Positions 1-17,181 of a DNA stretch of 64,000 nucleotides are shown piece after piece. The stretch lies in NCBI RefSeq assembly GCF_058153355.1, contig NZ_CM177019.1. One strand, given 5' to 3'. The notes beneath the pieces are model-generated. The model was not told the origin of the DNA and did no database searches. It saw nothing but the letters and a program-made list of their open reading frames with translations. The position numbers and the translations under genes are program-made. Position 1 is the first letter of the stretch. Each line of letters starts with the position of its first letter.

Positions 1-509
1 GATATCACCGTCTCAGCTCCTGTATAAGCAAGGACAGCAGATTTTCATTCACTGCCCCGTTCAACCGAAGGGTGCCGTTTCTGAACGTAATCTCACAGGA
101 GATGCTGTGTATTTCCGGTGTTACTGACGGTCTTGCGGTCAGTGGCTCATTAGCCGGAGCAGTTGGGAGTTGGGCATCAATAGTGACAGGAATTAACTGA
201 GATTCTCTGCCTGATTCTGATGATGGCAATTTTATCTTCCCCTGCCGCCATTTCTGACGCCATTTGAACAACAGATTGGCATTAATACCATTGTCCAGGG
301 CCAGTCTGGAAATTGAAACACCTGGCTGGAATGATGCTTCTATGAGTCGTTGTTTGAATTCAGGAGGATAATTCAGGCACCCTTTAGGCCTTCCCGGAGA
401 GGCATTTTTTTGTATATCTGACATTTTTATCACCCACTATTAATTTAGTGGTGGATACTTTGTCCAAAGCATCGGGAATTTGCCAGACGGTCCTGATAAG
501 ACGCTTACG
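1..509 (-). mobile_element. IS66-family insertion sequence, partial (continues beyond window start); putative terminal inverted repeat ends near 509
   Basis: tnpA-like ORF at 5..433; a GTG overlapping the tnpA stop at the window edge begins a second ORF (V-I-S..., tnpB-like overlap arrangement); minus-strand sequence at 503..509 reads GTAAGCG, the GTAA terminus typical of IS66-family inverted repeats. Confidence 0.4.
5..433 (-). CDS. IS66-family transposase accessory protein TnpA (orf1-like, HTH)
   Basis: 142-aa ORF; motif PEFKQRLIEASFQPGVSISRLALDNGINANLLFKWRQKWRQG matches the HTH_Tnp_1 pattern of IS66 orf1 proteins. Confidence 0.55.
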   Translation of the reverse strand: MIKMSDIQKNASPGRPKGCLNYPPEFKQRLIEASFQPGVSISRLALDNGINANLLFKWRQKWRQGKIKLPSSESGRESQLIPVTIDAQLPTAPANEPLTARPSVTPEIHSISCEITFRNGTLRLNGAVNENLLSLLIQELRR

Positions 510-1244
510 CTAATGACGCTTATTGTCACGCAGAAAAATGAATTGAATTTATTCAGGAAAAAGCATGGTGCTCGTGTCCAGGGGGATGGTTTTTTTGCCC
601 GCTGTCTGTGGTCTGTAACTACATCAACGCAGGGTATAAGAGCTCATCAACCTGATGTCCACGTAGATACCAGCGTTCTGGATAAATTTAACAAACGAGT
701 CGAGGAATTACTTGAACAAACGCTTGCCGGAACCACTCCCAGCGTTCTGCGCTTTTCTGTGGAAGCGGAACATCGCTTTGCTCAATATCAGAATGAAATT
801 GAGCAAAGAATATTAACAGAGAAAGGAGGGCATGAAGCACTGCCGGGAATTTTATCAAAGCTACCTGAGAATGCGGTAAGGCTGGCAGCATTAATGCACT
901 TTTTTTATGAATTTAAGGGTGATGAGATTGATGTAGCAACACTAAACTATATTTTTATGATTATGGAATATTATTACCAACAAGCAGTCAATATTTTGAC
1001 TGCCAGCCTGAGTTCCGATGAGGAGGACGCTAAAAGACTCTGGGAGTGGTTAATGACAGGCCATTTCTCGACGTCTACCTCAGTCGCGAAGTCAGAGATA
1101 AGACGTTATGCGCCCTACCAGCTGCGTGATGTAGTCCGCTATAACAAAGCGTTAAAATATCTTGAGGATATTGGTAGGATATATATAAAAAAGTACAAAA
1201 ACGGTAACGGTACTGTCAGTCAAGTGATTGATATCAATCGTTAA
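480..1244 (+). CDS. hypothetical protein, probably N-terminally truncated by the IS66-like element (possibly a DUF3987/YfjI-like C-terminal fragment)
   Basis: 254-aa ORF whose first codons lie inside the putative IS terminus; no recognisable catalytic motif. Confidence 0.3.
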   Translation: MPDGPDKTLTLMTLIVTQKNELNLFRKKHGARVQGDGFFARCLWSVTTSTQGIRAHQPDVHVDTSVLDKFNKRVEELLEQTLAGTTPSVLRFSVEAEHRFAQYQNEIEQRILTEKGGHEALPGILSKLPENAVRLAALMHFFYEFKGDEIDVATLNYIFMIMEYYYQQAVNILTASLSSDEEDAKRLWEWLMTGHFSTSTSVAKSEIRRYAPYQLRDVVRYNKALKYLEDIGRIYIKKYKNGNGTVSQVIDINR

Positions 1245-1301
1245 TGTAAGATATGCATAACTACTCCTCTGCTTTTCCTGCTCCGAAGAGCAGAAATCGC
1301 A

Positions 1302-4166: not shown

Positions 4167-5051
4167 TTAGAAAAACCAGTGCCATATTGCGGTAGCTGCA
4201 TTCTCCAGCCCTTCTCTGAGCACTCCCAACCCGTTGCGTATCATGTTGGGGAGAGGTATGGCCTCCAGAATCCTGCTCAATAATTCTCCCAACAAATCCG
4301 CGAAATCCTTTCGGGCCTTCGTCTCCGATTCTTTGGTGCGATGTTCTTTCCTGATCTGGCGAAAGACGCCACTGGTAGCCTCTGGTGGCAGGGCAAAAAT
4401 CATTGTTTCAACTATACGAGACATGTTGTAACCGGTTTTTGCTGAAACAGCATGCACCGGGTAAGGGGTAAAGAACTGGCGGGAAACGGCAGCACTTCTC
4501 GCTGTGAGCGTCATGAGTTGCTTCACTGAAGGAGATCCTTTTTCACGATCCCATTCCAGTGATGGCTCGGCTTTGTCAGCCTGGTTGATAACAAAAACAA
4601 TGCTGTCTGTCGATACGCCACAATCCAGTAGAAAACGGTGGAATTCTTCGTCTGTGGTACAGGCGCGGTCATCGGCTTTCATCACCCAGAGAATGAGATC
4701 CAGCTTCGGTAACTGTTCCTGATACATCTGGCGATATATCTCATCATGCTTCAGCGATTCACCTGCGCCCGGCAGATCGATCAGCGTCAGGCTGCGTCCT
4801 CCAGCGTTCAGGGTAAAATGCAAAGGTTTACGTGTGCAGCCTTCTGCATGGCTGACTGGGCTGAGAGGATGTTCAAAAAGAGCATTGCAAAGCGAGGATT
4901 TTCCGGCACCTGTTTTGCCCATGATGCCAATCACGGGTTCGTAATGAATACTCTGGCGTATATGCTCCAGAACCAAATCGGAGATATGTTCAGGAAGAAT
5001 GGATAAAGGTTGCTTCAGGACATTAATGCCCCGTTCAAAGGAATCAGACAT
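4167..5051 (-). CDS. YfjP/YkfA-family GTPase (P-loop GTP-binding protein)
   Basis: G1 motif GKTGAGKSS, DLPG (G3-like) and NQADK (G4 NKxD-like); GGAGG RBS upstream of the ATG at 5051; ORF extends to 5105. Confidence 0.6.
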   Translation of the reverse strand: MSDSFERGINVLKQPLSILPEHISDLVLEHIRQSIHYEPVIGIMGKTGAGKSSLCNALFEHPLSPVSHAEGCTRKPLHFTLNAGGRSLTLIDLPGAGESLKHDEIYRQMYQEQLPKLDLILWVMKADDRACTTDEEFHRFLLDCGVSTDSIVFVINQADKAEPSLEWDREKGSPSVKQLMTLTARSAAVSRQFFTPYPVHAVSAKTGYNMSRIVETMIFALPPEATSGVFRQIRKEHRTKESETKARKDFADLLGELLSRILEAIPLPNMIRNGLGVLREGLENAATAIWHWFF

Positions 5052-5215
5052 GTAGCCTCCGGAATGAAAAAATTCGATACAGCAACTTCGCTGCAATGTA
5101 TTCATTGCGGTAATACAGGTCTGTTTTTTTTTGCATTCGAATTACGGGGAGGAATGTGGTTTTGTGGAGCAAACCGGGGGCATTGCCCCGGTTCACTGAT
5201 ATGGTGAAATGATAT

Positions 5216-5455
5216 CTAACGTCGCATTACCCATTCATTCAGTTCTGACTCCAGCCAGCCAACGGATTGCCTTCCCAAGCGTTTTTGTTTTGGAAATGTT
5301 CCATCGTAGCGTGGCGATTTTGGATTAAGCCAGTCGTATATGGTTGAGCGTGAAATTCCCATTTTTTTCATTACATCTTTTAGCCTCAAGATCCTCGGTG
5401 AATCAGGAATATTTGCGTAACTGGATGTATGTAAGGAGGGAGGGTTCTGTAACAT
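5216..5455 (-). CDS. alpA: AlpA-family phage regulatory protein (HTH)
   Basis: 79-aa ORF; ISRSTIYDWLNPKSPRYDGTFPK matches the AlpA signature of P4/CP4-57-type elements. Confidence 0.65.
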   Translation of the reverse strand: MLQNPPSLHTSSYANIPDSPRILRLKDVMKKMGISRSTIYDWLNPKSPRYDGTFPKQKRLGRQSVGWLESELNEWVMRR

Positions 5456-5568
5456 CTAGGCTTCCTTAGTATGAGTTTGTTCGGGTGGGTCCATATTGCC
5501 AACCACGCTGGGGCTGTCATACACTGGAAGTAACATTAAAATAAAATCACTTTAGGGATTTACTTTTC

Positions 5569-6450
5569 ATGAAGGATGTGGGTGCGAATTTTTTTGATGA
5601 TTTCTATCTGCAAGTTTGTACCGCTTGTGAGGACAAACTTCTTGAGCTGGAATGGAAACTTGAAGTCGAAAAAAAGGAGAGCAACCAAGATGTTCTGCGC
5701 ACTTACAGGCAAAGAGCCTATGATAAAATTGAAGAATTTAAAATTATTGAGTATTCAAAAATACAATGTCAATATTTTGTAGATATGACTAATAGCGACA
5801 ATATACGCTACTCACAAGAGTTTATAAATGTTGATGGAATAATGGTTGAGAAACCTTTTATTTATAAGGAAACATATGCAGAATATCGGATTGAAATTCG
5901 AGGAAAAATGGACGGGTATAAACTGACAGGATTAGCAAGACTATATGATGCACATTATGAATATATATATCTATCTATGGCTTTAGAAGATTTTTACTGG
6001 GCGCAGTTCCAATATTCATTGGGCAATAAAAAAGAAAGTTGTAAGTTTCTTCTTGATGCTTATTCTTATATGAATGTCTGTATTTCGCGAGATGATAACC
6101 GAGACTCACCGAGTTTTCATCGATTAAGAAGTGGTTTTGATAAAGTATGCAGAAGAGCGCGCTCAAGCGCTGGAGGGAAAAATAAACTTGCAGAACTTGA
6201 ATATATTAAAGATACAGTTGTTATCTTACTTGAAGATATTCCTTCACATAGCGACTGGAAAAATAAACGTCAACTTCTTGAATATTTAATGCCCTATATT
6301 TGTAATAATGATAAAAAGGTCAATCCAGATAAATGGATAAATGATACAGGCGATAGAGAGGAAACTATCCGCCGCAGACTTAATAAATGGTTTACAGGTG
6401 ATCTAAAAGTAGAGATTGATAAAGTCCTAAAGAACAATACTAACAATTAA
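5569..6450 (+). CDS. hypothetical protein, AT-rich orphan
   Basis: 293-aa ORF, strongly AT-rich codon usage, transcribed divergently from alpA; no recognisable motif. Confidence 0.5.
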   Translation: MKDVGANFFDDFYLQVCTACEDKLLELEWKLEVEKKESNQDVLRTYRQRAYDKIEEFKIIEYSKIQCQYFVDMTNSDNIRYSQEFINVDGIMVEKPFIYKETYAEYRIEIRGKMDGYKLTGLARLYDAHYEYIYLSMALEDFYWAQFQYSLGNKKESCKFLLDAYSYMNVCISRDDNRDSPSFHRLRSGFDKVCRRARSSAGGKNKLAELEYIKDTVVILLEDIPSHSDWKNKRQLLEYLMPYICNNDKKVNPDKWINDTGDREETIRRRLNKWFTGDLKVEIDKVLKNNTNN

Positions 6451-6681
6451 TATTATTATGGTTTTGATATTTTTATGTCTATCAGGAGGGCTACTATACG
6501 ATCAGTCTTGATGGGTTTGAAATTACATCGCTATGAAAATACCCCACATAAATCTATTGGAAAACCAATCATTGTTAATATGACTATTGTTATGATGACT
6601 GTTGTAATTGTGTCTACACGAGAAATTGAATGAAATTTATAGGTTTGAAGTAGCCTTAGTGGTAGTCGAAAATAATTATGT

Positions 6682-6713
6682 AAATGGGCCTGCATTTTGC
6701 AAGAAGGCCCATT
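6682..6713. terminator. hairpin between convergent genes (aaatgggcc ... ggcccattt)
   Basis: 9-bp inverted repeat read directly. Confidence 0.3.
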
Positions 6714-6717
6714 TACG

Positions 6718-7047
6718 TCAGGGGTAAATTATATATCCCATAATCGCACAGATTAACCGGTAATCACTCACGTAGAAGATTTCCGGATTCTCAGTGCTTT
6801 GTTCACCGATAAAGAAGACTTGAGCTCTCTCTTTAGCTTTTTTATTTACTGCTTCTTTTGCTTCTTCCTGCACAGTTTCAAGCTCATTCAAAAGCATAGT
6901 CTTTTTGGCTTTTGACCAGTCTCCCCACTCAATGTGTAGTTTATAGCTACGCGAGGGCTTAAACTTACCAGATTCGTCTTTTGCCCATTCTCCCGAGAGC
7001 GGAATGACAATTCGGTTTTCGTCTTGCTCAAATTTCTGCCATAACAA
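6718..7047 (-). CDS. hypothetical protein (109 aa)
   Basis: ORF co-directional with and downstream of the STAND gene; no motif recognised. Confidence 0.4.
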   Translation of the reverse strand: MLWQKFEQDENRIVIPLSGEWAKDESGKFKPSRSYKLHIEWGDWSKAKKTMLLNELETVQEEAKEAVNKKAKERAQVFFIGEQSTENPEIFYVSDYRLICAIMGYIIYP

Positions 7048-7094
7048 CTGCGAATAAAAAACTCGGCGCTCAGGGTAGGGTTGAACCGGGTCTT

Positions 7095-7628
7095 TTAGTT
7101 TTTTAACACGGTCATGTAAGTATCGGCATTAATACCTGGGATAATTAATGACATACCACGGTCATACGGGAAGCGAATAAATGCCCTACAAATCTGGCGA
7201 ATAGCATTAACCGGGCGGCGGGATTGCCGCGCTGGAGCATTTCCCTCGCTGGATGCCGATGTTGTAGAACGTATTGGATTGGGTTTGTTGTTGTTACCAG
7301 TAGTGTCAGGATCAACAACGGGTCGATTTTCAATCAGTTTTAATCCTGCAGGCATCAAACCTGGTGCGCTATCTAACATGCGGCGGACGCTTTTCTTCTG
7401 CCCCTGTTTAACCACTGTGCTTTCTGCATCAGCATCGCAATTAATGTGCTCTTTTCCAGGCATTTTATTAAACGAAGGTCTTTTCTTACTTCCTTTTTGC
7501 CAAGCAGAAGGATACATCTCAATCCCACATCCCCAGCATACGTAACTGTTCGTATCTACAACATCAAGTAACCAAAGATCTTCTGCCTCAATAATCTCAC
7601 TGGTATATTTATCACGTGCAGATTCCAT
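7095..7628 (-). CDS. hypothetical protein (177 aa) with a CxxC motif
   Basis: good RBS (aaaggagaaatc then ATG); starts 45 bp after the STAND gene stop; contains C-W-G-C. Confidence 0.5.
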   Translation of the reverse strand: MESARDKYTSEIIEAEDLWLLDVVDTNSYVCWGCGIEMYPSAWQKGSKKRPSFNKMPGKEHINCDADAESTVVKQGQKKSVRRMLDSAPGLMPAGLKLIENRPVVDPDTTGNNNKPNPIRSTTSASSEGNAPARQSRRPVNAIRQICRAFIRFPYDRGMSLIIPGINADTYMTVLKN

Positions 7629-7673
7629 GATTTCTCCTTTAAACAGAATTCCTGTGAAGGCGGCTACTAGCCT

Positions 7674-10600
7674 TCATTCAAACCGTTGTTCCAATGCCTC
7701 ATCTTCCAATCGCTCGCGTTCTTTTTCCTTTTCAACCCAGTTAGTCAGTTTTTTATAAACAGCTCTAGCCGACTTAGAAATGTCTGCACGCTCGTGGGTG
7801 ACCAACCGGCCTATCGCTTCAACCCTGGGTTGCATCACGTTCGCACGACTACCGGACCATGATGAAGGTGCTACGTGTTCGGCAAAGATCTCAAGGACGG
7901 CTCGTGGCTCGGGTGAGGCTTCTAGAAATCTCAGAGCATCATCCTGCAAGCAAATAGGACTTTGCTCCCCGTCTTTTGACCATAGATTAATACCTGAAGC
8001 GACTGAAGCCCAAACCTGAGGGTCTTTAGTGGTCCCGCACCATTCAATCAAAATATCTACATCGATTTTCGCAATAGGAGACTGATGTGAATCATCATGA
8101 TTGATGAAATGCAGCCGCCTCTGTTGTTGATCCTCCGTACCATCAAAAATGCGACTGAGAAATTCTTTTGGCATCCATGCAGCGGTGATACCGATAGCGT
8201 CTTCGAAAGAAAAAATGTAGCCAAAATGCTCATCAACAACAGCAAAGATTGTATTCAGCCATTCTAGCTTTTCAGCCTCGTTGCCATCGAAGCGCAATGT
8301 GGCATCGATAACACGTTCCATTGCATAATCCAGATATCCGCCGAGATCGTTGTGATCTCTTTGGAACCTCTGGATTGCAGCGGATAGTCCAATTGTTCGT
8401 AGCGCAAGACCTAGTGTATCCGTAGCATCTCCTTTATCAGGTAGTTTCATACTCAATGCTTCCAATACTACTTCATCACCATTCGGTTTACTCAGCAGCC
8501 TTTGAGCAAGCTCGAGAACCCTGCTTTCTGGCAAATTAGAGAATTGCTCACCCCACAGAATTGCCCCATACATATGGGGCCGTATGTCAGAGTCATCCAG
8601 AAGCGACATGCAACGATCCAGATCGATTTCAGTAAACTCCTGCCAAGGATGTAGGTTGACTAATTCGAATCGAAGTTCGGAATGTTGTGCGCACTGATCG
8701 AGCAGTTCCTGCGCTAATGCTTTATCGATAGAATTCGTCTCTTCTATGAAACCTCGAATAACAGAAAAATCACTTTGAGATTTATGCTGTAGATTCATTT
8801 GAGTGATAAGTTTCTGCCAATAAACTCGTAGGTCAGGTGCTCCTTTAGCTAAGCCTTTACCGAATTCGACGCGATAGGGCATCCCATCTCGTAAGAATAA
8901 ATTAGGGCCTAACTCATCAAGTTCATGCGTGGATACTGCAAAGTCTTGCCCTAACTGGAACGCTTTTGCGTTAAGTATTTCCTTTATTTTTATGAATTTG
9001 TTAGGCCCCTCACGCTCAAAATCGGCATTCAGCGCCCAAAAATCACGCCCCTTACTGAGTACATAAGCCATAACTGCCGGAACCAAGTCATTAGGCTCCA
9101 ATTCTCGTTCCAATGTCACAAGTCCTTCCGGCAAAGGAGCTAAATCTTCGTTGTCATTTCTTTTGGTATGGGAAAAGTAAATTGTTGAGCGGACCGCTTT
9201 CCAGCCTTCACCCCAAGGACGATGGGCATGTAATTTGCGAGCCGCATCAATTAATTTTGACCTCATTCCTTCCTGACGCCAAATCCAGCGAAATTTATTA
9301 GCTAAGATCAGCCGAGCATCATCTTCAAGTTCGGGAACTCTTGAAGTTGCTAATCTCACCACAATGTCGATGAAGGTGATTAGCCACTCAACAAGCTCAT
9401 CGTAGCTGGGTCGAAATCCATAATCTCTTGGCCGAGCACCAAACTCATTAATCCCGAATCCTGTCCACGGTGGTCCGCCGAGAGCAGTTTCAAGCATTTC
9501 GAGCCCCAGCCTTCTACGTCCGGCCATACTTGAACCAATGCATTCATCCATGACCGCAACACGTTGTTCTAAAGAGGCATGGGTACCGGATAGATAAGGT
9601 TGGAAAAACCTCTTTATCTTATTTCGAGCCGAATCATAATTATTGCTCGCGCTTTCCTGATCTGCGATACGGATTAAGAGCTTAATGCATCGTTCAAAGT
9701 ATTTCGATTCATATGCAAGTAACTGCAACAATTTGATAATTGCTGTTCGTTGTGGGTTGTAGCGTGATTTAAAATGCTCAAAATTAGACGTAACAAGTGT
9801 TTCTTCAATCCGCTCAAGCAAAGCTCCCGGGGCGACTGGAGCGACATAATTCAGAATGCGTGTCGAAACATCATCTAGGTCTATTATTTTTCCAAGCAGC
9901 CCTTCGGGCTGTAACCAAGCTTCAACAATCTCTTTAGCCACAGCATGGCTGTGCAATAGTCCCAACCTGTGCGCGAACGACATCAATAATCGTTGTCGAT
10001 CCGGAGCTTCAAAGGTCGTCCTAAGTTGATCAATCGGAATACTATTAAGTGCAGATGCTGCCAACTTGTTAGCAATGGCATGGGGAAGGATGGCTCTCCA
10101 GTGGGATCTTTTCTGAACAACGTGACGTTCCATCAACTTCGTAACAGTTTTGAATAACTGGATTTTGGGATACCCAGAGAGCGCACCCAATATTTCCAGT
10201 TCATCGGTAGCTGCATCTGAACTAGATATTGAGAACGAATACACCAGTGACAATATTTCAGCTTGCTCCCGTAAATGGCCGTCGGGATGATTACGTTGTT
10301 CAAACAAGCGATTAAACAACTGCGCATCTGAAAGTAGGGCTAAACTCTCACCTTCCTCCACTCTTTCCGCTATAGCCAAAGCCACTCTTGCATTCCCATC
10401 TGCGAACTTTGCAATCCGACGGGCATTATTCTGACCAATAGAAGGGAAGCGACGGATAAGAAGTTGCTCTGCCACCTCTGGACCATCTGTCTCAATGTGG
10501 ATGACCTCAGTTGTCTGTGGTTTGTCATCCCTAATGTCGTACTCGATCGTGATGAGACTTACTTCTTTCCCTGCGGCTGATACTTTGCTGGCAAGCGAAG

Positions 10601-11525
10601 CATGGAGTTCTGATGGGCAATTATCAAGGATCATAATTGCTCGTCGGCCTTCAGCGAGCAGGTTATCAAGCATTGCTGTAGCCGACGGTACTGGCTCATA
10701 GCCAGTATCAACATAAATAGCTACTGTCCGGTCAAGCGCATCTGTTCCAACAGTATCATCAAAGAGCGCCTGAACGATTCGAGTCTTCCCAACACCAGAC
10801 AATCCTGTAATACGAACAGCCTTATTCGTCGAACGGATCAGTGCTCGCATTGGGTTAATTGCTTCATCAATTTTGAGTTTTTGCCCCTTTCCCGATGGTA
10901 AAGTAATGGTTACGCTTGGGGCTGAGATTAAAGTGTCTGTAACACCTTGTGGTGGATTGCTCCAGGCTCCGTAGGGTTGCCAACCGGAATACCCTTGCCC
11001 AAGCTTTGCTTTTACCCACAGCATGACTGATGGATGTTGGCGCAACCATTGGATGAGTTTGGAGCGGTCGTAGAAATCAAGATGAAGATAACTTTCGTTA
11101 GGATCATCTTTTACTGCATCTCTCATCGCTTTGAGACGATTCTTCTTTCCTGACGGCGAGCAATCATCACCCAGGCTGACAATGATGTAACTGCCTTGCT
11201 TTCTGGCTTGTTCAGAAATGATGGGAGAAAGTGCTTTTCCGGTGCCAATTTCCCTCTCGATTGCAGCCTTAGGCATCTTATGTTTCTTTGCCTGAAAGAC
11301 CGTATCAGGTCTTACAAGAAAGCCTGCTTTCAGTTGATCAACTGGAACCTGAACATGGATGTCAATTCCTCCGTCAGGGGCTGTAATTGAACCAGACCAA
11401 TTTACACATGCTGGGCTATGGCCGTGCATTGCCACTTCAGCTTCTGCTAGCCGAGCGATCAGCTCTTCCAACTGGATATCGGAGAGCCGAAGTAATTCGT
11501 CCTTTTCAATGTCAAAGATTGCCAC
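7674..11525 (-). CDS. Mrr-like (PD-(D/E)xK) nuclease / STAND P-loop NTPase / long helical C-terminal domain protein; Avs-like antiphage candidate
   Basis: 1283-aa ORF; N-terminal DGGID (residues 51-55) ... QAK (78-80) resembles the Mrr catalytic core; Walker A GLSGVGKT encoded at 10782..10805; Walker B-like AIMILDN; GNARVALAIA resembles the GxP motif of STAND NTPases. Confidence 0.7.
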   Translation of the reverse strand: MAIFDIEKDELLRLSDIQLEELIARLAEAEVAMHGHSPACVNWSGSITAPDGGIDIHVQVPVDQLKAGFLVRPDTVFQAKKHKMPKAAIEREIGTGKALSPIISEQARKQGSYIIVSLGDDCSPSGKKNRLKAMRDAVKDDPNESYLHLDFYDRSKLIQWLRQHPSVMLWVKAKLGQGYSGWQPYGAWSNPPQGVTDTLISAPSVTITLPSGKGQKLKIDEAINPMRALIRSTNKAVRITGLSGVGKTRIVQALFDDTVGTDALDRTVAIYVDTGYEPVPSATAMLDNLLAEGRRAIMILDNCPSELHASLASKVSAAGKEVSLITIEYDIRDDKPQTTEVIHIETDGPEVAEQLLIRRFPSIGQNNARRIAKFADGNARVALAIAERVEEGESLALLSDAQLFNRLFEQRNHPDGHLREQAEILSLVYSFSISSSDAATDELEILGALSGYPKIQLFKTVTKLMERHVVQKRSHWRAILPHAIANKLAASALNSIPIDQLRTTFEAPDRQRLLMSFAHRLGLLHSHAVAKEIVEAWLQPEGLLGKIIDLDDVSTRILNYVAPVAPGALLERIEETLVTSNFEHFKSRYNPQRTAIIKLLQLLAYESKYFERCIKLLIRIADQESASNNYDSARNKIKRFFQPYLSGTHASLEQRVAVMDECIGSSMAGRRRLGLEMLETALGGPPWTGFGINEFGARPRDYGFRPSYDELVEWLITFIDIVVRLATSRVPELEDDARLILANKFRWIWRQEGMRSKLIDAARKLHAHRPWGEGWKAVRSTIYFSHTKRNDNEDLAPLPEGLVTLERELEPNDLVPAVMAYVLSKGRDFWALNADFEREGPNKFIKIKEILNAKAFQLGQDFAVSTHELDELGPNLFLRDGMPYRVEFGKGLAKGAPDLRVYWQKLITQMNLQHKSQSDFSVIRGFIEETNSIDKALAQELLDQCAQHSELRFELVNLHPWQEFTEIDLDRCMSLLDDSDIRPHMYGAILWGEQFSNLPESRVLELAQRLLSKPNGDEVVLEALSMKLPDKGDATDTLGLALRTIGLSAAIQRFQRDHNDLGGYLDYAMERVIDATLRFDGNEAEKLEWLNTIFAVVDEHFGYIFSFEDAIGITAAWMPKEFLSRIFDGTEDQQQRRLHFINHDDSHQSPIAKIDVDILIEWCGTTKDPQVWASVASGINLWSKDGEQSPICLQDDALRFLEASPEPRAVLEIFAEHVAPSSWSGSRANVMQPRVEAIGRLVTHERADISKSARAVYKKLTNWVEKEKERERLEDEALEQRFE

Positions 11526-11972
11526 ATCCTAACCCTATTAAAGATACTGCGACTATATAAAAAGTTACCCTTATTCTAACCAATGACAGAAGGAATGTCC
11601 CTTAAACCGTTGCAATTAAAACCATTCTCATCAAGTAGTTAAGATTTTCTTACTCAGCACTATGATGTTGATCTTACCCACTTTGCGTCAAACTATTAGT
11701 ATGTATAAAGCACATTGCTGGCCTGATTAAGAAATGGATTGATATGTGAGTTAATGTCATTTATGAGCTTAAAGCTATTTTTAATCCCCTTTGCTTTACA
11801 ACTCTTTATATTATTTCATTCTTATTTACACCAATATTTATTGGTATGATGGTTTAATTTAATTCATTTTTGTTTTTTTGTTTGAAGCACATTGAAAGGA
11901 TATTATTATTTTCTCCTTCATGTTGAAAACAATTTAATTGGGCGGGTTTGGTTCGATATTATTAATATCTTT

Positions 11973-12000
11973 TTCAAAGAAATTATTTATATGGTATAAT
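11973..12000 (+). promoter_or_regulatory. putative sigma70 promoter with extended -10 (ttcaaa ... tggtataat)
   Basis: -35-like ttcaaa at 11973..11978, 16-bp spacer, TGnTATAAT at 11992..12000, within a long AT-rich tract upstream of the nuclease-helicase gene. Confidence 0.3.
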
Positions 12001-12032
12001 GCAATAAAATCGTATTGAGGTAAGAGGGTACT

Positions 12033-12227
12033 ATGAGTGGATCTTTTGATTTCTTAGCTGGTTCTTTGGCTCTTGAAAATAAACCTTTCCATATGCAGGT
12101 TGCAGAGCTAATAAAAAATAAGTTTCGTCATTGTGAGGGATATATTGGCTATAAGCTTGCAACTTTGGGACGGGCATCGGACTCCGATGTTCCAGATTTT
12201 ATCATTATACAAAAGAACATGGCATAA
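12033..12227 (+). pseudogene. 5' portion of nuclease-helicase gene (NERD/PD-(D/E)xK-like N-terminus), separated from the helicase frame by an apparent -1 frameshift
   Basis: 64-aa ORF with RBS gaggtaagaggg; ends ...SDVPDFIIIQKNMA; adding one A to the A4 run at 12211..12214 gives DFIIIQKEHGIILVDMVESK, continuous with the helicase ORF. Confidence 0.45.
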
Positions 12228-12238
12228 TTTTAGTTGAC

Positions 12239-14248
12239 ATGGTTGAAAGTAAGGTTTCTCGTGCGGATGAGGTGCAGGGGAATGAGGTTTGGTATTATGA
12301 GCATGGAGGTTCGAGTGTAGCAAGGAATTTTATTGTCGAGTTGTATGAGGAGGAGGTAAGAAGTAGATTAAAAAACGATGCAAATTTCTACAACAGAAGA
12401 AAAAAAACATGCACAGTTCCGATTACTAGCGCTGTTATTTTTTGTAAAAATAATAATAGTGAGATAGACAATTTCTATCAAGAGTATGCTGATTATGAAA
12501 GTTCAGCTATTGAATATGGCGAGATTGAGAATTGGTTAGATAGCGTTGAAGAAGGGTTCAATTGCGATTCTAAAGTTCTGGGGCGAATTTTTTCATTGTT
12601 AGAGGGGACGTTTATATATGAAAATAAAAAAATTCTCGATGAAGAACCACCCCTTAACACTGTGAATGATTATATCAAAAAATCTCTAAATATAACATTT
12701 AATCAAGATCACTCACAACGTATTGCTTCAATGCAACTAACCCCGGGCCCTCAGAGAATTCGTGGCTTGGCCGGAACAGGTAAGACGATAGTTCTTTCAT
12801 TAAAAGCTGCGATAACGCACAAAAAATTTCCAGATTATAAAATATTATATTTATTTAATACACAAAGCTTATATCAAAATGTGCAGAGTTCAATCGCCAG
12901 ATACTATACTTTAGAAGCCAAAAAAGCGCCAGATTTTGAATCGAATCTAAATGTCTTCCATGCGTGGGGTGGTAGGCAGAAACCGGGACTGTATTCATAT
13001 ATTTGCCAACAGTATGGATTAACTCCACTAACATTAGGAGATGTACGTGGAGCAAGTGATGCCTTAGCTGTCATATATGCAGAACTTCTCAAAAAAATCG
13101 GTGGTGATATAAAGCCTGAATATGATCTTATTTTAATAGATGAAGCCCAAGATTTTCCTAAAGAGTTGTTTGAAGTGGTCTTTAAACTAGCAAAGGGCAA
13201 ACCTCATGAGAAAAGGATCGTTTGGGCGTATGATGAATTCCAGTCATTGAAAGACACTCAAATTAAAGGTCCATCTGAGCTATTTGGTTTGGCCAAAGAT
13301 GGCACCCCAAATATGAGTGATGATGTTTTAGATGGATTCTATCCTGGTGACATAAAAAAAGATATTGTTTTATCCAATTGCTATAGGACTCCTCGTCCTG
13401 CTCTTATGACTGCTCACGGAGTAGCATTAGGACTTTATACTAATAAGCCGAATGAAATGTTTTATAACCATGATGAATGGAAAGCTATTGGCTATAAAGT
13501 TTTAAATCCTCAGACAAAAATCATTGCAAAAGGCAATGATGTGCAAATAGAGAGACCTAATGAAAATAGTCTAAATCTGTTGGAAGGAATTATGACAGAG
13601 CAGGGTAAGAGGGCCCTTAACCTTATCCAGACTAAGGTGGAAAATGATCGGGAAAGTCAATATGAATATATTGCAAGTAACATCAAACGTTTAATTGATG
13701 AGGAAAATGTCTCGCCTGAAGAAATAGTCATAATTAATTTGAAGTCCTCTAGTAACAAAGATGAGATGCTACGCATTCAATTCATCTTAAATAATTACGG
13801 TATTCACTCTGTAATTCCCGGTTACGTTGAAAGCTCAGATGTCTTTAAACCCAAGGGGTTCGTTACAATCACAACCCCTTTCAGGGCTAAAGGGAATGAA
13901 GCTAATATTGTATTTATTTTAAATAGCCAGTTAGTTGTTAATGATTTTTCATTAAGGATGCGTAATGCATTTTTTGTAGCAGTAACTCGAACAAGAGGAT
14001 GGTGTTATATTGTTGGTTATGGAGAAAAAATGCAAATGCTTGTGGACGAAATTTCAGGAATCAAAAGAGATTTCCCTATATTTAATTTCATTTGTCCTGA
14101 CCCTGATGATGTCAAAGCACGAAAAAGTTATCTCCACAAATCAGACTCTGAGATCAATGAGATGCAAAGAGTACTGGATTTAGTTAATAATAACGAAGAG
14201 TTAAGACGACTGCTACAGGAGCAGCTCATTGATAAGAAAGGAGATTAA
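12239..14248 (+). CDS. SF1 helicase (UvrD/RecD-like), probable C-terminal body of a nuclease-helicase fusion
   Basis: 669-aa ORF; Walker A GLAGTGKT at 12764..12787; Walker B LILIDEAQDF; FVAVTRTRGW motif VI-like. Confidence 0.7.
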   Translation: MVESKVSRADEVQGNEVWYYEHGGSSVARNFIVELYEEEVRSRLKNDANFYNRRKKTCTVPITSAVIFCKNNNSEIDNFYQEYADYESSAIEYGEIENWLDSVEEGFNCDSKVLGRIFSLLEGTFIYENKKILDEEPPLNTVNDYIKKSLNITFNQDHSQRIASMQLTPGPQRIRGLAGTGKTIVLSLKAAITHKKFPDYKILYLFNTQSLYQNVQSSIARYYTLEAKKAPDFESNLNVFHAWGGRQKPGLYSYICQQYGLTPLTLGDVRGASDALAVIYAELLKKIGGDIKPEYDLILIDEAQDFPKELFEVVFKLAKGKPHEKRIVWAYDEFQSLKDTQIKGPSELFGLAKDGTPNMSDDVLDGFYPGDIKKDIVLSNCYRTPRPALMTAHGVALGLYTNKPNEMFYNHDEWKAIGYKVLNPQTKIIAKGNDVQIERPNENSLNLLEGIMTEQGKRALNLIQTKVENDRESQYEYIASNIKRLIDEENVSPEEIVIINLKSSSNKDEMLRIQFILNNYGIHSVIPGYVESSDVFKPKGFVTITTPFRAKGNEANIVFILNSQLVVNDFSLRMRNAFFVAVTRTRGWCYIVGYGEKMQMLVDEISGIKRDFPIFNFICPDPDDVKARKSYLHKSDSEINEMQRVLDLVNNNEELRRLLQEQLIDKKGD

Positions 14249-14250
14249 AA

Positions 14251-14922
14251 TTGAATTTCTCATTAGTGCAGCAAAGCTTAAACCATGTCGAAGCACTTTT
14301 AAAACCTGTAACTCAACAAAAATTAATAGAGTTTAAAGAAAGAGAGAAGGTCATAAGTTGGACAAATAGGAAGCCAGGAATTTACAATGAAGTCTACTAT
14401 CCTATTGAATATCAATGTGTAATTGATGCAAGGCAGTACTCATTATTGCTTCGAGATGGCGATTTTTTTCAATTTTTTTATGAGTTTGATGCGAAAACTG
14501 GCAATCTGAAGAAAGCTAAGTTGGCTTTCTATCCCTCACCAATTGATTGTAGAAATTCGTTGGATGATCTCAATGAAGCAGCTGAATTTGCTTTTGATCA
14601 TAATGAAGAACTCTATAATCATCTTGATAATTGGATTTCGCTATTGGAAATAAAAAACTATTTTCCAGCAAATACATCTCAAGTTAGATTTGATTATGAT
14701 AGTACGGTTACTACACATGAGAAAGCACATCTGCAGTTTAGTAGTGTAAATAAACTTAGACTTCCGGCTGACTTTTTTCCTTTGCCATATGCATTTGTAT
14801 TAATGGTTTCTGATCTTATTAATGGATGCTCAAAGGTAGATGCTAGACATATAAGCTTTACTAAGAGAAACAGCCTAAGATCAAATGTTTCTAATAGAAT
14901 CATAACCTTGAAATCACAGTGA
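14251..14922 (+). CDS. hypothetical protein, helicase-coupled partner (223 aa)
   Basis: TTG start 3 bp after the helicase stop, AGGAG RBS 7 nt upstream; AT-rich; no motif recognised. Confidence 0.5.
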   Translation: MNFSLVQQSLNHVEALLKPVTQQKLIEFKEREKVISWTNRKPGIYNEVYYPIEYQCVIDARQYSLLLRDGDFFQFFYEFDAKTGNLKKAKLAFYPSPIDCRNSLDDLNEAAEFAFDHNEELYNHLDNWISLLEIKNYFPANTSQVRFDYDSTVTTHEKAHLQFSSVNKLRLPADFFPLPYAFVLMVSDLINGCSKVDARHISFTKRNSLRSNVSNRIITLKSQ

Positions 14923-14928
14923 ATTAAC

Positions 14929-14962
14929 AAGCCTCTTTTATAAGGATATAAGAGGCTTGTTA
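14929..14962. terminator. bidirectional hairpin terminator (aacaagcctctt ... aagaggcttgtt)
   Basis: perfect 12-bp inverted repeat between the convergent partner gene and integrase. Confidence 0.45.
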
Positions 14963-15372
14963 TTATTTCGCTAAATCTGATCACTGTCGAGAATTGATTG
15001 ATTTTTTGTGATTATTTATTCCATTCTGAGTTCATTGCCGATTTTATATGTATGTATTTTGTATCGGCTTATCTTGGCTTATTAAGTCTAGCATCACACA
15101 ATGCTTTTCAGGAAATCATCTTACCTATTAACCATATTATTACCGGCCCAACATTTCTCGCATTTACAGCTGGTAGCTCCTGTGTGTAAACGCTATTAAT
15201 CTCATACTCATTGGTTTAATATTAACTTTGAACTTCTGGAGTGCAGATCACCAATCCTAATATTACTACTAAATAGCTGCGCCTAATAACGCGACACCCG
15301 CCGTTTACTGTCTGGTGGCTTAACCTGCAAGGGCTGGCTGAAAGTGGGACACTATTCCGCGCAGCTATTTAG

Positions 15373-16614
15373 TCACCCAACTAGCTTCATTCCTTTTATC
15401 CCACCTTCAATCATGCTTCCACGATCCGCTGCCATCACAAAATTTGCCCACCATTGCATCATCGGGCGACGCTGTTCCAGGTAATCGCTGCGGTTATAAG
15501 CACGACGAACCTCATTCTTATCCACATGGGCCAATGCTGCCTCAATGACATCAGGCGGAAAGCCTTGTTCATTAAGAGCCGTACTGGCAATTGATCTCAG
15601 ACCATGCGAAACAAGCACACCACCAAAACCTGCGCGTTTTAGTGAGGCGTTAACAGTCTGACTGTTCATTGGCTGGTTGGGCTTGATACGGCTGGGAAAG
15701 ATAAATTCTCGGTTGCCGCTTAGCGGTTTCATCATCTCCAGCACAGCTATTGCTTCATCTGACAATGGAACAGTATGATCGCGGTTCATTTTCATGCGTG
15801 CTGCAGGAATCTTCCACTCTCGCGCTTCTATGTCTACCTCTTCCCAGCGAGCTTCAGCCGCTTCGGCAGGGCGGGTAATAGTAAGAAGTTGCCACATGAA
15901 CAGGCAGCGTGTGGAAAGGCTAATGCTGGCTGTTCGCATTGTCTGCATCAATTGAGGTAGCTGATCCGGTCGAATGCTGGGCATGTTCTTTTTCTGAGGC
16001 TTCTCGAAGGCTTTACCGATATTAACGCTGGGAACAGCATCAATCAGCCCTGTGTTTTGGGCATAGATCATGACCTCATTAATGCGCTGACACAGGCGAC
16101 GAACGGTTTCCAGTGCTCCTCTGGCCTGAACTGGTTGGACGGCCTGAACCAGTGTGTGTGCTTTAATATCTGTAACGCTAATGTCGCCAATTGCAGGAAA
16201 GACATCTCTCTCAAGAGAGCGCCAGATATCCTCTGCGTAGTCTTCGGTCACACTGGCTTTCTTCACATTCCACCAACGTTCAGCCACGAGCTGGAAAGTA
16301 TTGGTTTTAGCTTCCAGCGAACTGCGAAGTTGTTCTTGTTGATGTTCCTGGGGATCAATTTGTTTCGCCAGAAGAGAGCGGGACTCTGCCCGATAGTTTC
16401 GGGCATCGGCAAGGGTAACTGACGGGTAGGGGCCTATGCTCTTCTTCGCACGTTTCTTAGTGACAGGGCGAATGTAGCGAAACTGCCAGATTTTACTTCC
16501 GCTGGATTTGATGAGTAGCTCAAGGCCATCACCATCATAGAGAACGTAGTCCGCTTCTTTGGGTTTGGCGGATTCGATTTCTTTAACGGATAGAGGTTTG
16601 GTTTGTCTTGCCAT
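15373..16614 (-). CDS. intA: P4-type tyrosine integrase (IntA-like) next to ssrA
   Basis: 413-aa ORF; C-terminal catalytic region with HGLRS ... EAALAH ... RAY pattern; position immediately 5' of the tmRNA 3' end. Confidence 0.85.
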   Translation of the reverse strand: MARQTKPLSVKEIESAKPKEADYVLYDGDGLELLIKSSGSKIWQFRYIRPVTKKRAKKSIGPYPSVTLADARNYRAESRSLLAKQIDPQEHQQEQLRSSLEAKTNTFQLVAERWWNVKKASVTEDYAEDIWRSLERDVFPAIGDISVTDIKAHTLVQAVQPVQARGALETVRRLCQRINEVMIYAQNTGLIDAVPSVNIGKAFEKPQKKNMPSIRPDQLPQLMQTMRTASISLSTRCLFMWQLLTITRPAEAAEARWEEVDIEAREWKIPAARMKMNRDHTVPLSDEAIAVLEMMKPLSGNREFIFPSRIKPNQPMNSQTVNASLKRAGFGGVLVSHGLRSIASTALNEQGFPPDVIEAALAHVDKNEVRRAYNRSDYLEQRRPMMQWWANFVMAADRGSMIEGGIKGMKLVG

Positions 16615-16818: not shown

Positions 16819-17181
16819 TGGTGGAGCTGGCGGGAGTTGAACCCGCGTCCGAAATTCCTACATCCTCGGTACTACATGCTTAGTCAGTCTTTACATTCGC
16901 TTGCCAGCTGCGGACGGACACGCCACTAACAAACTAGCCTGATTAAGTTTTAACGCTTCAACCCCAGGCAGGGCTTCCACGCGATCTCTTTTGGGTTTGA
17001 CCTCTCTTGATCCCCGTCCTAAGAGCGGAGGCTAGGGAGAGAGGGCTCTAAGCAGGTTATTAAGCTGCTAAAGCGTAGTTTTCGTCGTTTGCGACTATTT
17101 TTTGCGGCTTTTTACGAGGCCAACCGCCCCTCGGCATGCACCTTGGGTTTCGCAAATCCCGTCGAATCCAGAATCAGCCCC
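16819..17181 (-). ncRNA. ssrA: tmRNA (SsrA)
   Basis: reverse complement begins GGGGCTGATTCTGGATTCGACGGG and ends ...GTTCAACTCCCGCCAGCTCCACCA; tag-encoding region present. Confidence 0.92.

What the first reader, a model, noticed from the sequence alone, without database searches (positions are those of the whole stretch)
5569..6450. AT-rich 293-aa orphan gene divergent from alpA
Seen: a well-formed ORF with markedly AT-rich codon usage (K, N, Y, D, E, I rich) and no recognisable domain, sitting between the AlpA regulator and the STAND cluster. Inference: it is horizontally acquired cargo; defence islands often hold uncharacterised abortive-infection or anti-defence proteins in such positions.
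Basis: inference. Interest (0 to 1): 0.5.

Follow-up and report, generated by a model that had tools for sequence, protein, structure and literature searches.

The report
YfjH-family gene flanking a defence slot
The AT-rich 293-aa ORF is a real gene of unknown function, a distant relative of E. coli K-12 YfjH, that always sits head-to-head with the excision regulator gene alpA in islands inserted at the tmRNA gene and marks the edge of the slot where those islands swap anti-phage systems.

Summary
The ORF (5569-6450, +, 293 aa, 33.6% GC) is real and under purifying selection (dN/dS 0.23-0.47). It has no Pfam, NCBIfam, PADLOC, PHROG, PDB or fold match of known function.

It is not an orphan. 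It belongs to a small enterobacterial family, and profile-profile comparison links that family to K-12 YfjH (b2623, phrog_19089).

In all 18 distinct genomic contexts examined, the gene lies head-to-head with alpA at a fixed 113-125 bp. It lies between alpA and a P4-type integrase.

The stretch between its stop codon and the integrase is a variable slot. It holds PD-lambda-4/Avs8 plus helicase-DUF2290 here, and Hachiman, other cassettes, or nothing elsewhere.

The gene therefore belongs to the int-yfjH-alpA module. It is not part of the neighbouring STAND system, which works without it.

Its alleles are anciently diverged (dS about 1, versus 0.1-0.3 for backbone neighbours). One recombination junction lies inside the gene, so its 3' third travels with the cassette.

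The mechanism is only inferred. My best guess is an accessory or regulatory partner of the AlpA/Int excision switch. An anti-defence role is the main rival, because K-12 YfjH was a retron-toxin "blocker" hit.

Interest is moderate to low.

The parts
5569..6450 (+). ORF293, a YfjH-family protein. It has an acidic N-terminal half (helical hairpin plus beta-hairpin) and a basic C-terminal helical half carrying the two conserved G[GW]KxK motifs.
5456..5568 (.). 113-bp divergent control region between alpA and ORF293. It is conserved even among loci whose ORF is only 36-59% identical. It contains a promoter-like TTGCCA-18-TACACT at 5496..5525 (+) that would drive ORF293.
   Evidence: consensus matches only; function not shown
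5216..5455 (-). alpA (Phage_AlpA excisionase/activator family), the invariant head-to-head partner of ORF293.
5743..5772 (-). Promoter-like TTGACA-18-AATAAT (11/12) inside the ORF, pointing towards alpA. A match at the same or nearly the same position is kept in 8 of the 12 ORF293-subfamily loci scanned. It overlaps conserved codons, so the conservation may be protein-driven.
   Evidence: speculative
6451..15372 (.). Variable defence-cargo slot at the 3'-3' junction between ORF293 and int. Here it holds PD-lambda-4/Avs8 B (6718..7628, frameshifted) and A (7674..11525), plus a helicase (12239..14248) and a DUF2290 protein (14251..14922).
6680..6716 (.). Perfect 12-bp inverted repeat (13-nt loop) between the convergent ORF293 and PD-lambda-4 B. 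It looks like a terminator hairpin.
15373..16614 (-). P4-type tyrosine integrase, the third member of the int-yfjH-alpA module.
16819..17181 (-). tmRNA gene (ssrA), the integration site of the island.

Best explanation
SHOWN: ORF293 is a genuine protein-coding gene. It is a divergent subfamily of the uncharacterised YfjH family (E. coli K-12 b2623, phrog_19089). It is the third conserved gene of the int - yfjH-like - alpA integration/excision module of CP4-57-type integrative islands, most of them at ssrA. The junction between its 3' end and the 3' end of int is where these islands accumulate and exchange anti-phage cassettes. The gene is the inner flank of that slot. Its alleles are as anciently diverged as the integrases, and recombination junctions lie at its 5' end and inside it at the conserved SSxGGxNK motif, so its 3' third travels with the cassette. 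INFERRED (about 35-40% likely): the protein is an accessory or regulatory partner of the AlpA/Int excision-induction switch. It would be expressed from a conserved promoter back-to-back with alpA. Its basic C-terminal half (two G[GW]KxK loop-helix motifs) would contact nucleic acid, and its acidic N-terminal coiled hairpin would contact a protein partner. It is not a defence effector and not part of Avs8.
For: Real gene: conserved in-frame homologues at 20-99% identity with dN/dS 0.23-0.47. YfjH link: BLASTP 27% over 127 aa, E 3e-6. hhalign of the two family alignments gives 96.5% probability, E 7e-10, 208 columns. Intermediate members P0026 and P0021 hit phrog_19089 at 5.5e-8 and 0.003. Family-wide invariant or nearly invariant (at least 90%) residues are G90, K95, Y99, W144, G202, G203, K206, W230 and W274. 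Synteny: in every locus examined, alpA lies head-to-head 113-125 bp away (window; L001-L016, L018-L024, L028-L031; K-12 gives 124 bp with the family-consistent start). This holds across different backbones and a 33%-identical integrase. The slot between the gene and int holds PD-lambda-4 (window, L001, L009), Hachiman (L004-8), MBL + HamA-protease + helicase + TPR (L014, L026), CTD2/MComp1/SMC/KAP (L013, L021), and TIR/patatin (L024). It holds nothing in K-12 (243 bp), L020 (17 bp) or L028 (62 bp). Divergence step: nucleotide identity is 90-100% through alpA, about 70-80% across the ORF, and random after its stop. dS is 0.85-1.25 for the ORF versus 0.08-0.30 for GTPase, WYL and AlpA, and int dS is 0.46 to saturated. 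L004 and L021 are 98-100% identical up to nt +460 of the ORF, and identity collapses after nt +610. The intergenic region is better conserved than the ORF. Charge is bipartite family-wide. AlpA overexpression induces CP4-57 excision (PMC10107115). Avs8AB is sufficient without this gene.
Against: No DNA-binding or any other domain was detected by sequence or fold. The whole protein is mildly acidic (pI 5.8). Conserved synteny may reflect common descent of a compact module rather than functional coupling. Promoter assignments are consensus matches only. There are no expression or phenotype data for this gene. For an immunity-type repressor one would expect the operator region to diverge together with the protein, and it does not.
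Confidence: 0.45

Rival explanations
1. Anti-defence (counter-immunity) protein of the island. YfjH-like proteins would neutralise host toxin or abortive-infection effectors so the mobile element can establish or excise.
For: K-12 yfjH was among the prophage-gene 'blockers' of the retron-Sen2 toxin RcaT in the TIC/TAC overexpression screen (bioRxiv 10.1101/2020.06.22.160242). The same island family carries antirestriction, RadC and CbtA/CbeA genes at its other end. Constraint is relatively relaxed: dN/dS is about 2x that of its neighbours and 10x that of int.
Against: This is a single screen hit on a homologue that is only about 19% identical, and I did not see individual validation of it. Other blockers in that screen were chaperones and generic factors. 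The gene is kept at a fixed regulatory position next to alpA rather than in the leading-region-like block. dN/dS is below 1 throughout, and no region shows excess non-synonymous change.
Confidence: 0.2
2. Stand-alone defence or abortive-infection gene, or a cassette-specific accessory or regulator of the adjacent defence system.
For: It is located at the edge of a defence-rich slot and is AT-rich. Its C-terminal third co-varies with the cassette: P0012 has the N-terminus of P0016 but the C-terminus and cargo of P0014. In several loci the cargo is co-directional downstream.
Against: There is no PADLOC hit for any member. The gene is present and intact where there is no cargo at all (K-12, L020, L028-31). 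One family is paired with at least five unrelated cassettes. Avs8AB works alone in MG1655, and the ECOR07 transposon screen gave no insertion in this gene. The C-terminal co-variation is explained by linkage to a recombination junction.
Confidence: 0.1
3. Functionally dispensable hitch-hiker. The ORF would persist mainly as a block of homology that anchors cassette exchange and would be slowly decaying.
For: The window allele differs from the common E. coli allele by 4 non-synonymous changes versus 1 synonymous. Pseudogenised or truncated copies exist (L027/P0019, L003). Most E. coli carriers have a degraded island.
Against: dN/dS is 0.23-0.47 over saturated dS. The reading frame is intact across genera from E. 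coli to Photorhabdus, Chimaeribacter and Lelliottia. Residues are invariant across subfamilies that are only about 20% identical.
Confidence: 0.1

Closest known systems
E. coli K-12 YfjH (b2623, CP4-57 prophage; phrog_19089), uncharacterised
   Same: Same position: between intA and alpA, head-to-head with alpA, about 124 bp from the family-consistent start. Same length (about 291 aa). Shared motifs (N-terminal DxFYxQxC, F[YW]WG, GGKxK, GWKxK, C-terminal W...LK). hhalign probability 96.5%.
   Different: Only about 19% identical. ORF293 itself does not reach the phrog_19089 HMM. In YfjH-type islands the gene abuts int with no cargo. In the ORF293 subfamily 4.5-9.4 kb of defence genes are inserted there.
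Defence hotspots of P4-like satellites (psu-int region) and the E. coli tmRNA-locus defence hotspot #9
   Same: Variable anti-phage cassettes lie next to a P4-type integrase, flanked by conserved element genes and exchanged by recombination (PMC9122126; PMC10121019).
   Different: This element lacks psu, delta and sid. It has a CP4-57-type backbone (GTPase, WYL-HTH, DUF3987, YfjJ, DUF932, RadC, CbtA/CbeA). The inner flank is the YfjH-like gene, and one junction lies inside it.
Divergently transcribed master regulators of integrative elements (SaPI Stl opposite str/xis; phage CI opposite cro) - analogy only, from general knowledge
   Same: The gene sits back-to-back with the excision/activator gene across a short conserved control region. 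It is much more divergent between related elements than the surrounding backbone.
   Different: No helix-turn-helix or any DNA-binding domain was detected. The control region does not co-diverge with the protein. No experimental link exists.
RacC (Rac prophage), blocker of retron toxin RcaT
   Same: YfjH appeared in the same blocker list of the same screen.
   Different: RacC is a 91-aa protein with direct follow-up. No sequence relation to ORF293 was tested or is expected.

Membership tests
YfjH family (K-12 b2623 / phrog_19089) | Detectable sequence homology to YfjH | tested here: met
   BLASTP E 3e-6 over 127 aa. hhalign of family alignments gives 96.5% probability, E 7.4e-10, 208 columns.
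YfjH family (K-12 b2623 / phrog_19089) | Direct match of this protein to the phrog_19089 HMM | tested here: not met
   No PHROG hit for ORF293 at E<=0.01. Only the intermediate members P0026 (5.5e-8) and P0021 (0.003) reach it. ORF293 is therefore a separate subfamily of a wider superfamily.
YfjH family (K-12 b2623 / phrog_19089) | Position between a P4-type int and alpA, head-to-head with alpA | tested here: met
   Window and all loci examined.
PD-lambda-4 / Avs8 defence system | Match to a PADLOC PD-Lambda-4 model, or obligatory co-occurrence with Avs8A/B | tested here: not met
   No PADLOC hit. Homologues sit next to Hachiman, TIR/patatin, SMC-type and other cassettes, or no cassette. Published work shows the AB operon suffices.
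Any catalogued anti-phage defence protein (PADLOC v2) | HMM match of any family member | tested here: not met
   0 families for ORF293 and 8 other members; one chance-level hit at E 0.022.
Transcriptional repressor/activator of mobile elements (HTH, RHH, WYL etc.) | Recognisable DNA-binding domain by sequence or fold | tested here: not met
Transcriptional repressor/activator of mobile elements (HTH, RHH, WYL etc.) | Binding to the alpA-ORF293 control region, or an effect on alpA/int expression | not testable with these tools
   Needs EMSA, reporter fusions or an excision assay.
Abortive-infection or toxin protein | Toxicity on expression or phage-dependent growth arrest | not testable with these tools
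   No toxin domain was found. The gene is carried intact in 140 or more E. coli genomes without an obvious antitoxin partner.
Anti-defence protein (retron RcaT blocker) | Relief of a defence or toxin phenotype by this protein | not testable with these tools
   There is only a screen hit for the remote homologue YfjH.

The most novel reading that the evidence does not exclude
YfjH-like proteins are a previously unrecognised third component of P4-type int/AlpA recombination modules. They would have two parts. The acidic N-terminal half would stay with the backbone. The basic C-terminal third would be exchanged together with the defence cassette. On this reading they act as a sensor or adaptor that couples the state of the cassette (or an incoming phage or toxin) to island excision and induction, or they neutralise activated immune toxins so the island can move.
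Probability: 0.12. Interest if true: 0.7.

Novelty: new member of a known kind. Interest (0 to 1): 0.33.

Why it matters
The result gives a y-ome gene (yfjH) and its relatives a defined genomic role. They are the fixed partner of alpA and the landmark for a defence-cassette slot in tmRNA-associated islands. This landmark can be used to mine new anti-phage systems: anything between a YfjH-like gene and the P4-type integrase is a candidate. It also points to a simple genetic test in K-12 (yfjH versus alpA-driven CP4-57 excision) that could reveal a new regulator or anti-defence factor. It also shows that the ORF should not be counted as part of Avs8/PD-lambda-4.

Tried and rejected
Domain and family scans on ORF293 and up to 32 family members gave nothing of known function (Pfam, NCBIfam, PADLOC, PHROGs).

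Sequence searches of the PDB with the protein and with both family profiles gave nothing.

Two AlphaFold2 models were made (pLDDT 74 and 81).
- Foldseek against AFDB50 returned only uncharacterised enterobacterial homologues.
- Foldseek against BFVD viral proteins returned no hit at E<=0.001.

tblastn against the phage and plasmid collections found no match.

The IMG/VR scan returned one identical copy only. The species-representative genome scan returned 3 loci. The first attempt with alignment A3 failed for lack of a conserved stretch.

Rfam found no RNA family in 5000-7200.

The literature search for b2623, WP_000655916 and phrog_19089 returned only irrelevant papers.

I considered an immunity-type repressor with co-diverging operators. 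I rejected it as the leading model because the intergenic region is better conserved than the protein.

I considered the gene as a component of Avs8 and rejected this.

I considered a membrane or secreted protein and rejected this: the maximum Kyte-Doolittle 19-residue mean is 0.73.

Full report
OBSERVATION. It is 33.6% GC (GC3 26%). Other island genes are 38-50% GC and the core chromosome to the right of 17 kb is about 51%. With this composition a stop-free run of 293 codons has a probability of about 6e-12 per start, or about 8e-7 for the whole window. Competing ORFs in other frames are 68 aa or shorter. The gene lies head-to-head with an AlpA-family gene (5216..5455, -) across 113 bp. It converges on the two genes of PD-lambda-4 (6718..11525, -), which PADLOC recognises with E=0 for gene A. 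No Pfam, NCBIfam, PADLOC or PHROG family matches the protein.

SETTING. The left 17 kb of the window is a CP4-57-type integrative island at the tmRNA gene.
- The tmRNA gene is at 16819..17181 and a P4-type integrase at 15373..16614.
- Two defence cassettes follow. One is a helicase plus DUF2290 candidate pair at 12239..14922. The other is PD-lambda-4, now called Avs8, a STAND sensor of major capsid proteins.
- Then come ORF293, alpA, a YfjP-like GTPase, a WYL-HTH regulator, two hypothetical genes, an HTH_26 gene, and a truncated yfjI-like gene next to an IS-type ORF.

The same island, 97.7% identical over 11.2 kb, is annotated in E. coli R32_14_1F between ypjA and ssrA. ORF293 at 95% identity or more (148 of 149 at 99% or more) occurs in 149 of 5426 complete E. 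coli genomes, always chromosomal. In most of them, including O104:H4, the island is a remnant. In two carriers examined (L002, L003) an IS3 element truncates the GTPase. Most of the others stop matching at the same point in that gene. What is left is alpA, ORF293 and PD-lambda-4.

NOT AN ORPHAN. A search of 5.8e9 proteins found 19 clusters at 54-99% identity in E. coli, Citrobacter koseri, Photorhabdus and metagenomes. A profile search of 1.84e9 representatives added full-length members down to about 20% identity, with only 23 hits in all. AFDB matches come from Leminorella, Lelliottia, Budvicia, Pantoea and Yersinia, all uncharacterised. Species-representative genomes added Intestinirhabdus, Chimaeribacter and a disrupted Photorhabdus copy.

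E. coli K-12 has a gene in the same place, yfjH (b2623), between intA and alpA. ORF293 and YfjH align at 27% identity over 127 residues (E 3e-6). The two family alignments match by hhalign with 96.5% probability (E 7e-10, 208 columns). Intermediate members hit the YfjH HMM phrog_19089 (5.5e-8 and 0.003). The merged alignment leaves a signature of G90, K95, Y99, W144, G202-G203-x-x-K206, W230 and W274. The two motifs GGKNKLAELEY and (D)WKNKRQLLEY are an internal repeat that is also visible at the DNA level. ORF293 itself does not reach phrog_19089, so it is a distinct subfamily of a wider YfjH superfamily.

WHAT THE CONTEXT SHOWS. In every locus I could read, the homologue is head-to-head with alpA. 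The spacing is 113 bp in the window, L004, L013, L014, L018, L021 and L024. It is 114 bp in L019, and 125 bp in L020 and L028-L031. In K-12 it is 124 bp if the family-consistent start MISLNDFY is used. This holds even where the rest of the backbone differs (L019, L020, the K-12 type) and where the integrase is only 33% identical.

On the other side of the gene lies, sooner or later, the integrase, convergent with it. Between them the loci hold:
- PD-lambda-4 (window, L001, Citrobacter L009);
- Hachiman HamA/HamB (L004-8);
- a metallo-beta-lactamase + trypsin-HamA + helicase + TPR + DUF4365 set (L014, L026);
- a CTD2/MComp1/SMC/KAP-NTPase set (L013, L021-23);
- ThsB-like TIR, TIR_2 and patatin genes (L024);
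- nothing at all: 17 bp in L020, 62 bp in L028, 243 bp in K-12.

The conserved unit is therefore int - yfjH-like - alpA. The 3'-3' junction between int and the yfjH-like gene is a cargo slot that is filled with anti-phage systems in the ORF293 subfamily. The tmRNA locus is already known as E. coli defence hotspot #9 (PMC10121019). The finer anatomy described here is, as far as I could find, not described.

EVOLUTIONARY PATTERN. Between the window and islands with other cassettes, the backbone proteins are 93-96% identical (GTPase, WYL) and AlpA is 81-92% identical. ORF293 is 54-59% identical. This is old divergence, not fast protein evolution. dS is 0.85-1.25 for ORF293 against 0.08-0.30 for its neighbours, with dN/dS 0.23-0.47. 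The integrase shows the same deep dS (0.46 to saturation) with dN/dS 0.03.

Sliding-window identity stays at 90-100% through alpA. It steps down to about 70-80% at the alpA start codon and across the ORF. It becomes random immediately after the ORF stop. A second junction lies inside the gene. L004 (Hachiman) and L021 (SMC-type cassette) are 98-100% identical up to nt +460 of the ORF. They are unrelated after about nt +610, at the conserved SSxGGxNK motif. L013 and L021, which share a cassette, are nearly identical in the last 90 codons (dS 0.07) but not in the first 70 (dS 0.30). The gene thus straddles the boundary of the exchanged segment, and conserved stretches within it serve as crossover points. 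The apparent co-variation of its C-terminus with the cargo is most simply linkage.

CONTROL REGION. The 113-bp spacer is better conserved than the ORF, even in loci where the protein is 36-44% identical. It contains a promoter-like TTGCCA-18-TACACT (5496..5525, +) about 44 nt upstream of the ATG. No comparable minus-strand promoter for alpA lies within the spacer. The best candidate (TTGACA-18-AATAAT, 11/12) lies inside the ORF at 5772..5743 and recurs at the same or nearly the same position in 8 of the 12 ORF293-subfamily loci scanned. It overlaps conserved codons. If both promoters are real, the two transcripts overlap back-to-back, as in a genetic switch. This is a consensus-match inference only. 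For K-12 yfjH, in-vitro run-off arrays reported sigma-S-favoured transcription (PMC3141248).

MECHANISM. What is shown is the identity and genomic role above. What the protein does is inferred.

- Most likely (about 35-40%): an accessory or regulatory partner of the AlpA/Int excision-induction switch. The support is as follows. It is the only gene besides int and alpA that is retained across all backbones. It keeps a fixed head-to-head geometry with alpA over a conserved control region. AlpA is the known inducer of CP4-57 excision. The protein's acidic/basic two-part build suits an adaptor that touches both a protein and nucleic acid. Against this are the absence of any recognisable DNA-binding fold and the lack of co-divergence of the control region.
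- Main rival (about 20%): an anti-defence role. K-12 yfjH was listed among prophage 'blockers' of the retron-Sen2 toxin RcaT. I found no individual validation of it.
- About 10%: a defence or abortive-infection role, or an Avs8 accessory role. The gene occurs with unrelated cassettes and without any. No PADLOC model matches any member. Avs8AB is sufficient in MG1655, and a transposon screen for loss of Avs8 function hit only gene A.
- About 10%: a decaying hitch-hiker. This is contradicted by purifying selection over saturated dS and by residues invariant between subfamilies.

VERDICT. It is wrong in treating the gene as cargo, because the gene is a backbone landmark. It is a new subfamily of an already catalogued but uncharacterised family. 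Interest is moderate to low. The gene is useful as a marker for mining the int/yfjH slot and as a cheap K-12 experiment, with a modest chance of revealing a new regulator or anti-defence factor.

Noticed in passing
window 6718-7628 (-): The PD-lambda-4/Avs8 B gene is split into 177-aa and 109-aa ORFs by a 1-nt deletion in a T-run near 7105, relative to the intact 303-aa gene of E. coli R32_14_1F. In two other E. coli genomes B is annotated as 248 aa plus a small ORF. The accessory gene may therefore often be broken, or this may be a homopolymer sequencing error.
   Followed up: partly
window 11710-15371: This stretch is not homologous to the otherwise 97.7%-identical island of R32_14_1F, which has a 1248-aa protein there. 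The window instead carries a helicase (12239-14248, PADLOC PDLC03002, 1.8e-108) and a DUF2290 protein (14251-14922). This is a candidate defence pair, so the slot holds two systems.
   Followed up: partly
window 6680-6716: A perfect 12-bp inverted repeat with a 13-nt loop lies directly after the PD-lambda-4 B stop, between the convergent genes. It is a likely terminator. IS66 and IS3/group-II-intron insertions occur in this same junction in other E. coli genomes (L002, L003).
   Followed up: partly
window 6176-6204 and 6257-6285: A 29-nt direct repeat inside the ORF (79% identical) encodes the two family-wide motifs GKNKLAELEY and WKNKRQLLEY. This is an internal duplication of a G[GW]KxK loop-helix unit.
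   Followed up: partly
window 1-1250: The left end of the island is degraded. A yfjI-like (DUF3987) gene survives only as its C-terminal 254 aa (480-1244), next to an IS-type ORF (5-433, -).
   Followed up: no
L002, L003 and one search hits (E. coli incl. O104:H4): In two carriers examined (L002, L003) the island is reduced by an IS3 insertion inside the GTPase gene to a remnant: truncated GTPase, alpA, ORF293, PD-lambda-4. Most other carriers stop matching at the same point of the GTPase gene. The alpA-ORF293 pair is retained together with the defence system.
   Followed up: partly
L017 (K-12) 4645-5601: The annotated 318-aa YfjH start is probably 27 codons too far upstream. All homologues are about 291 aa and begin at the MISLNDFY-equivalent position, which restores a 124-bp spacer to alpA.
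   Followed up: partly
L013, L021-L023: A cassette of about 9 kb with CTD2, MComp1, SMC/AAA_23 and KAP-NTPase proteins occupies the slot in Photorhabdus and E. coli. I did not check it against PADLOC.
   Followed up: no
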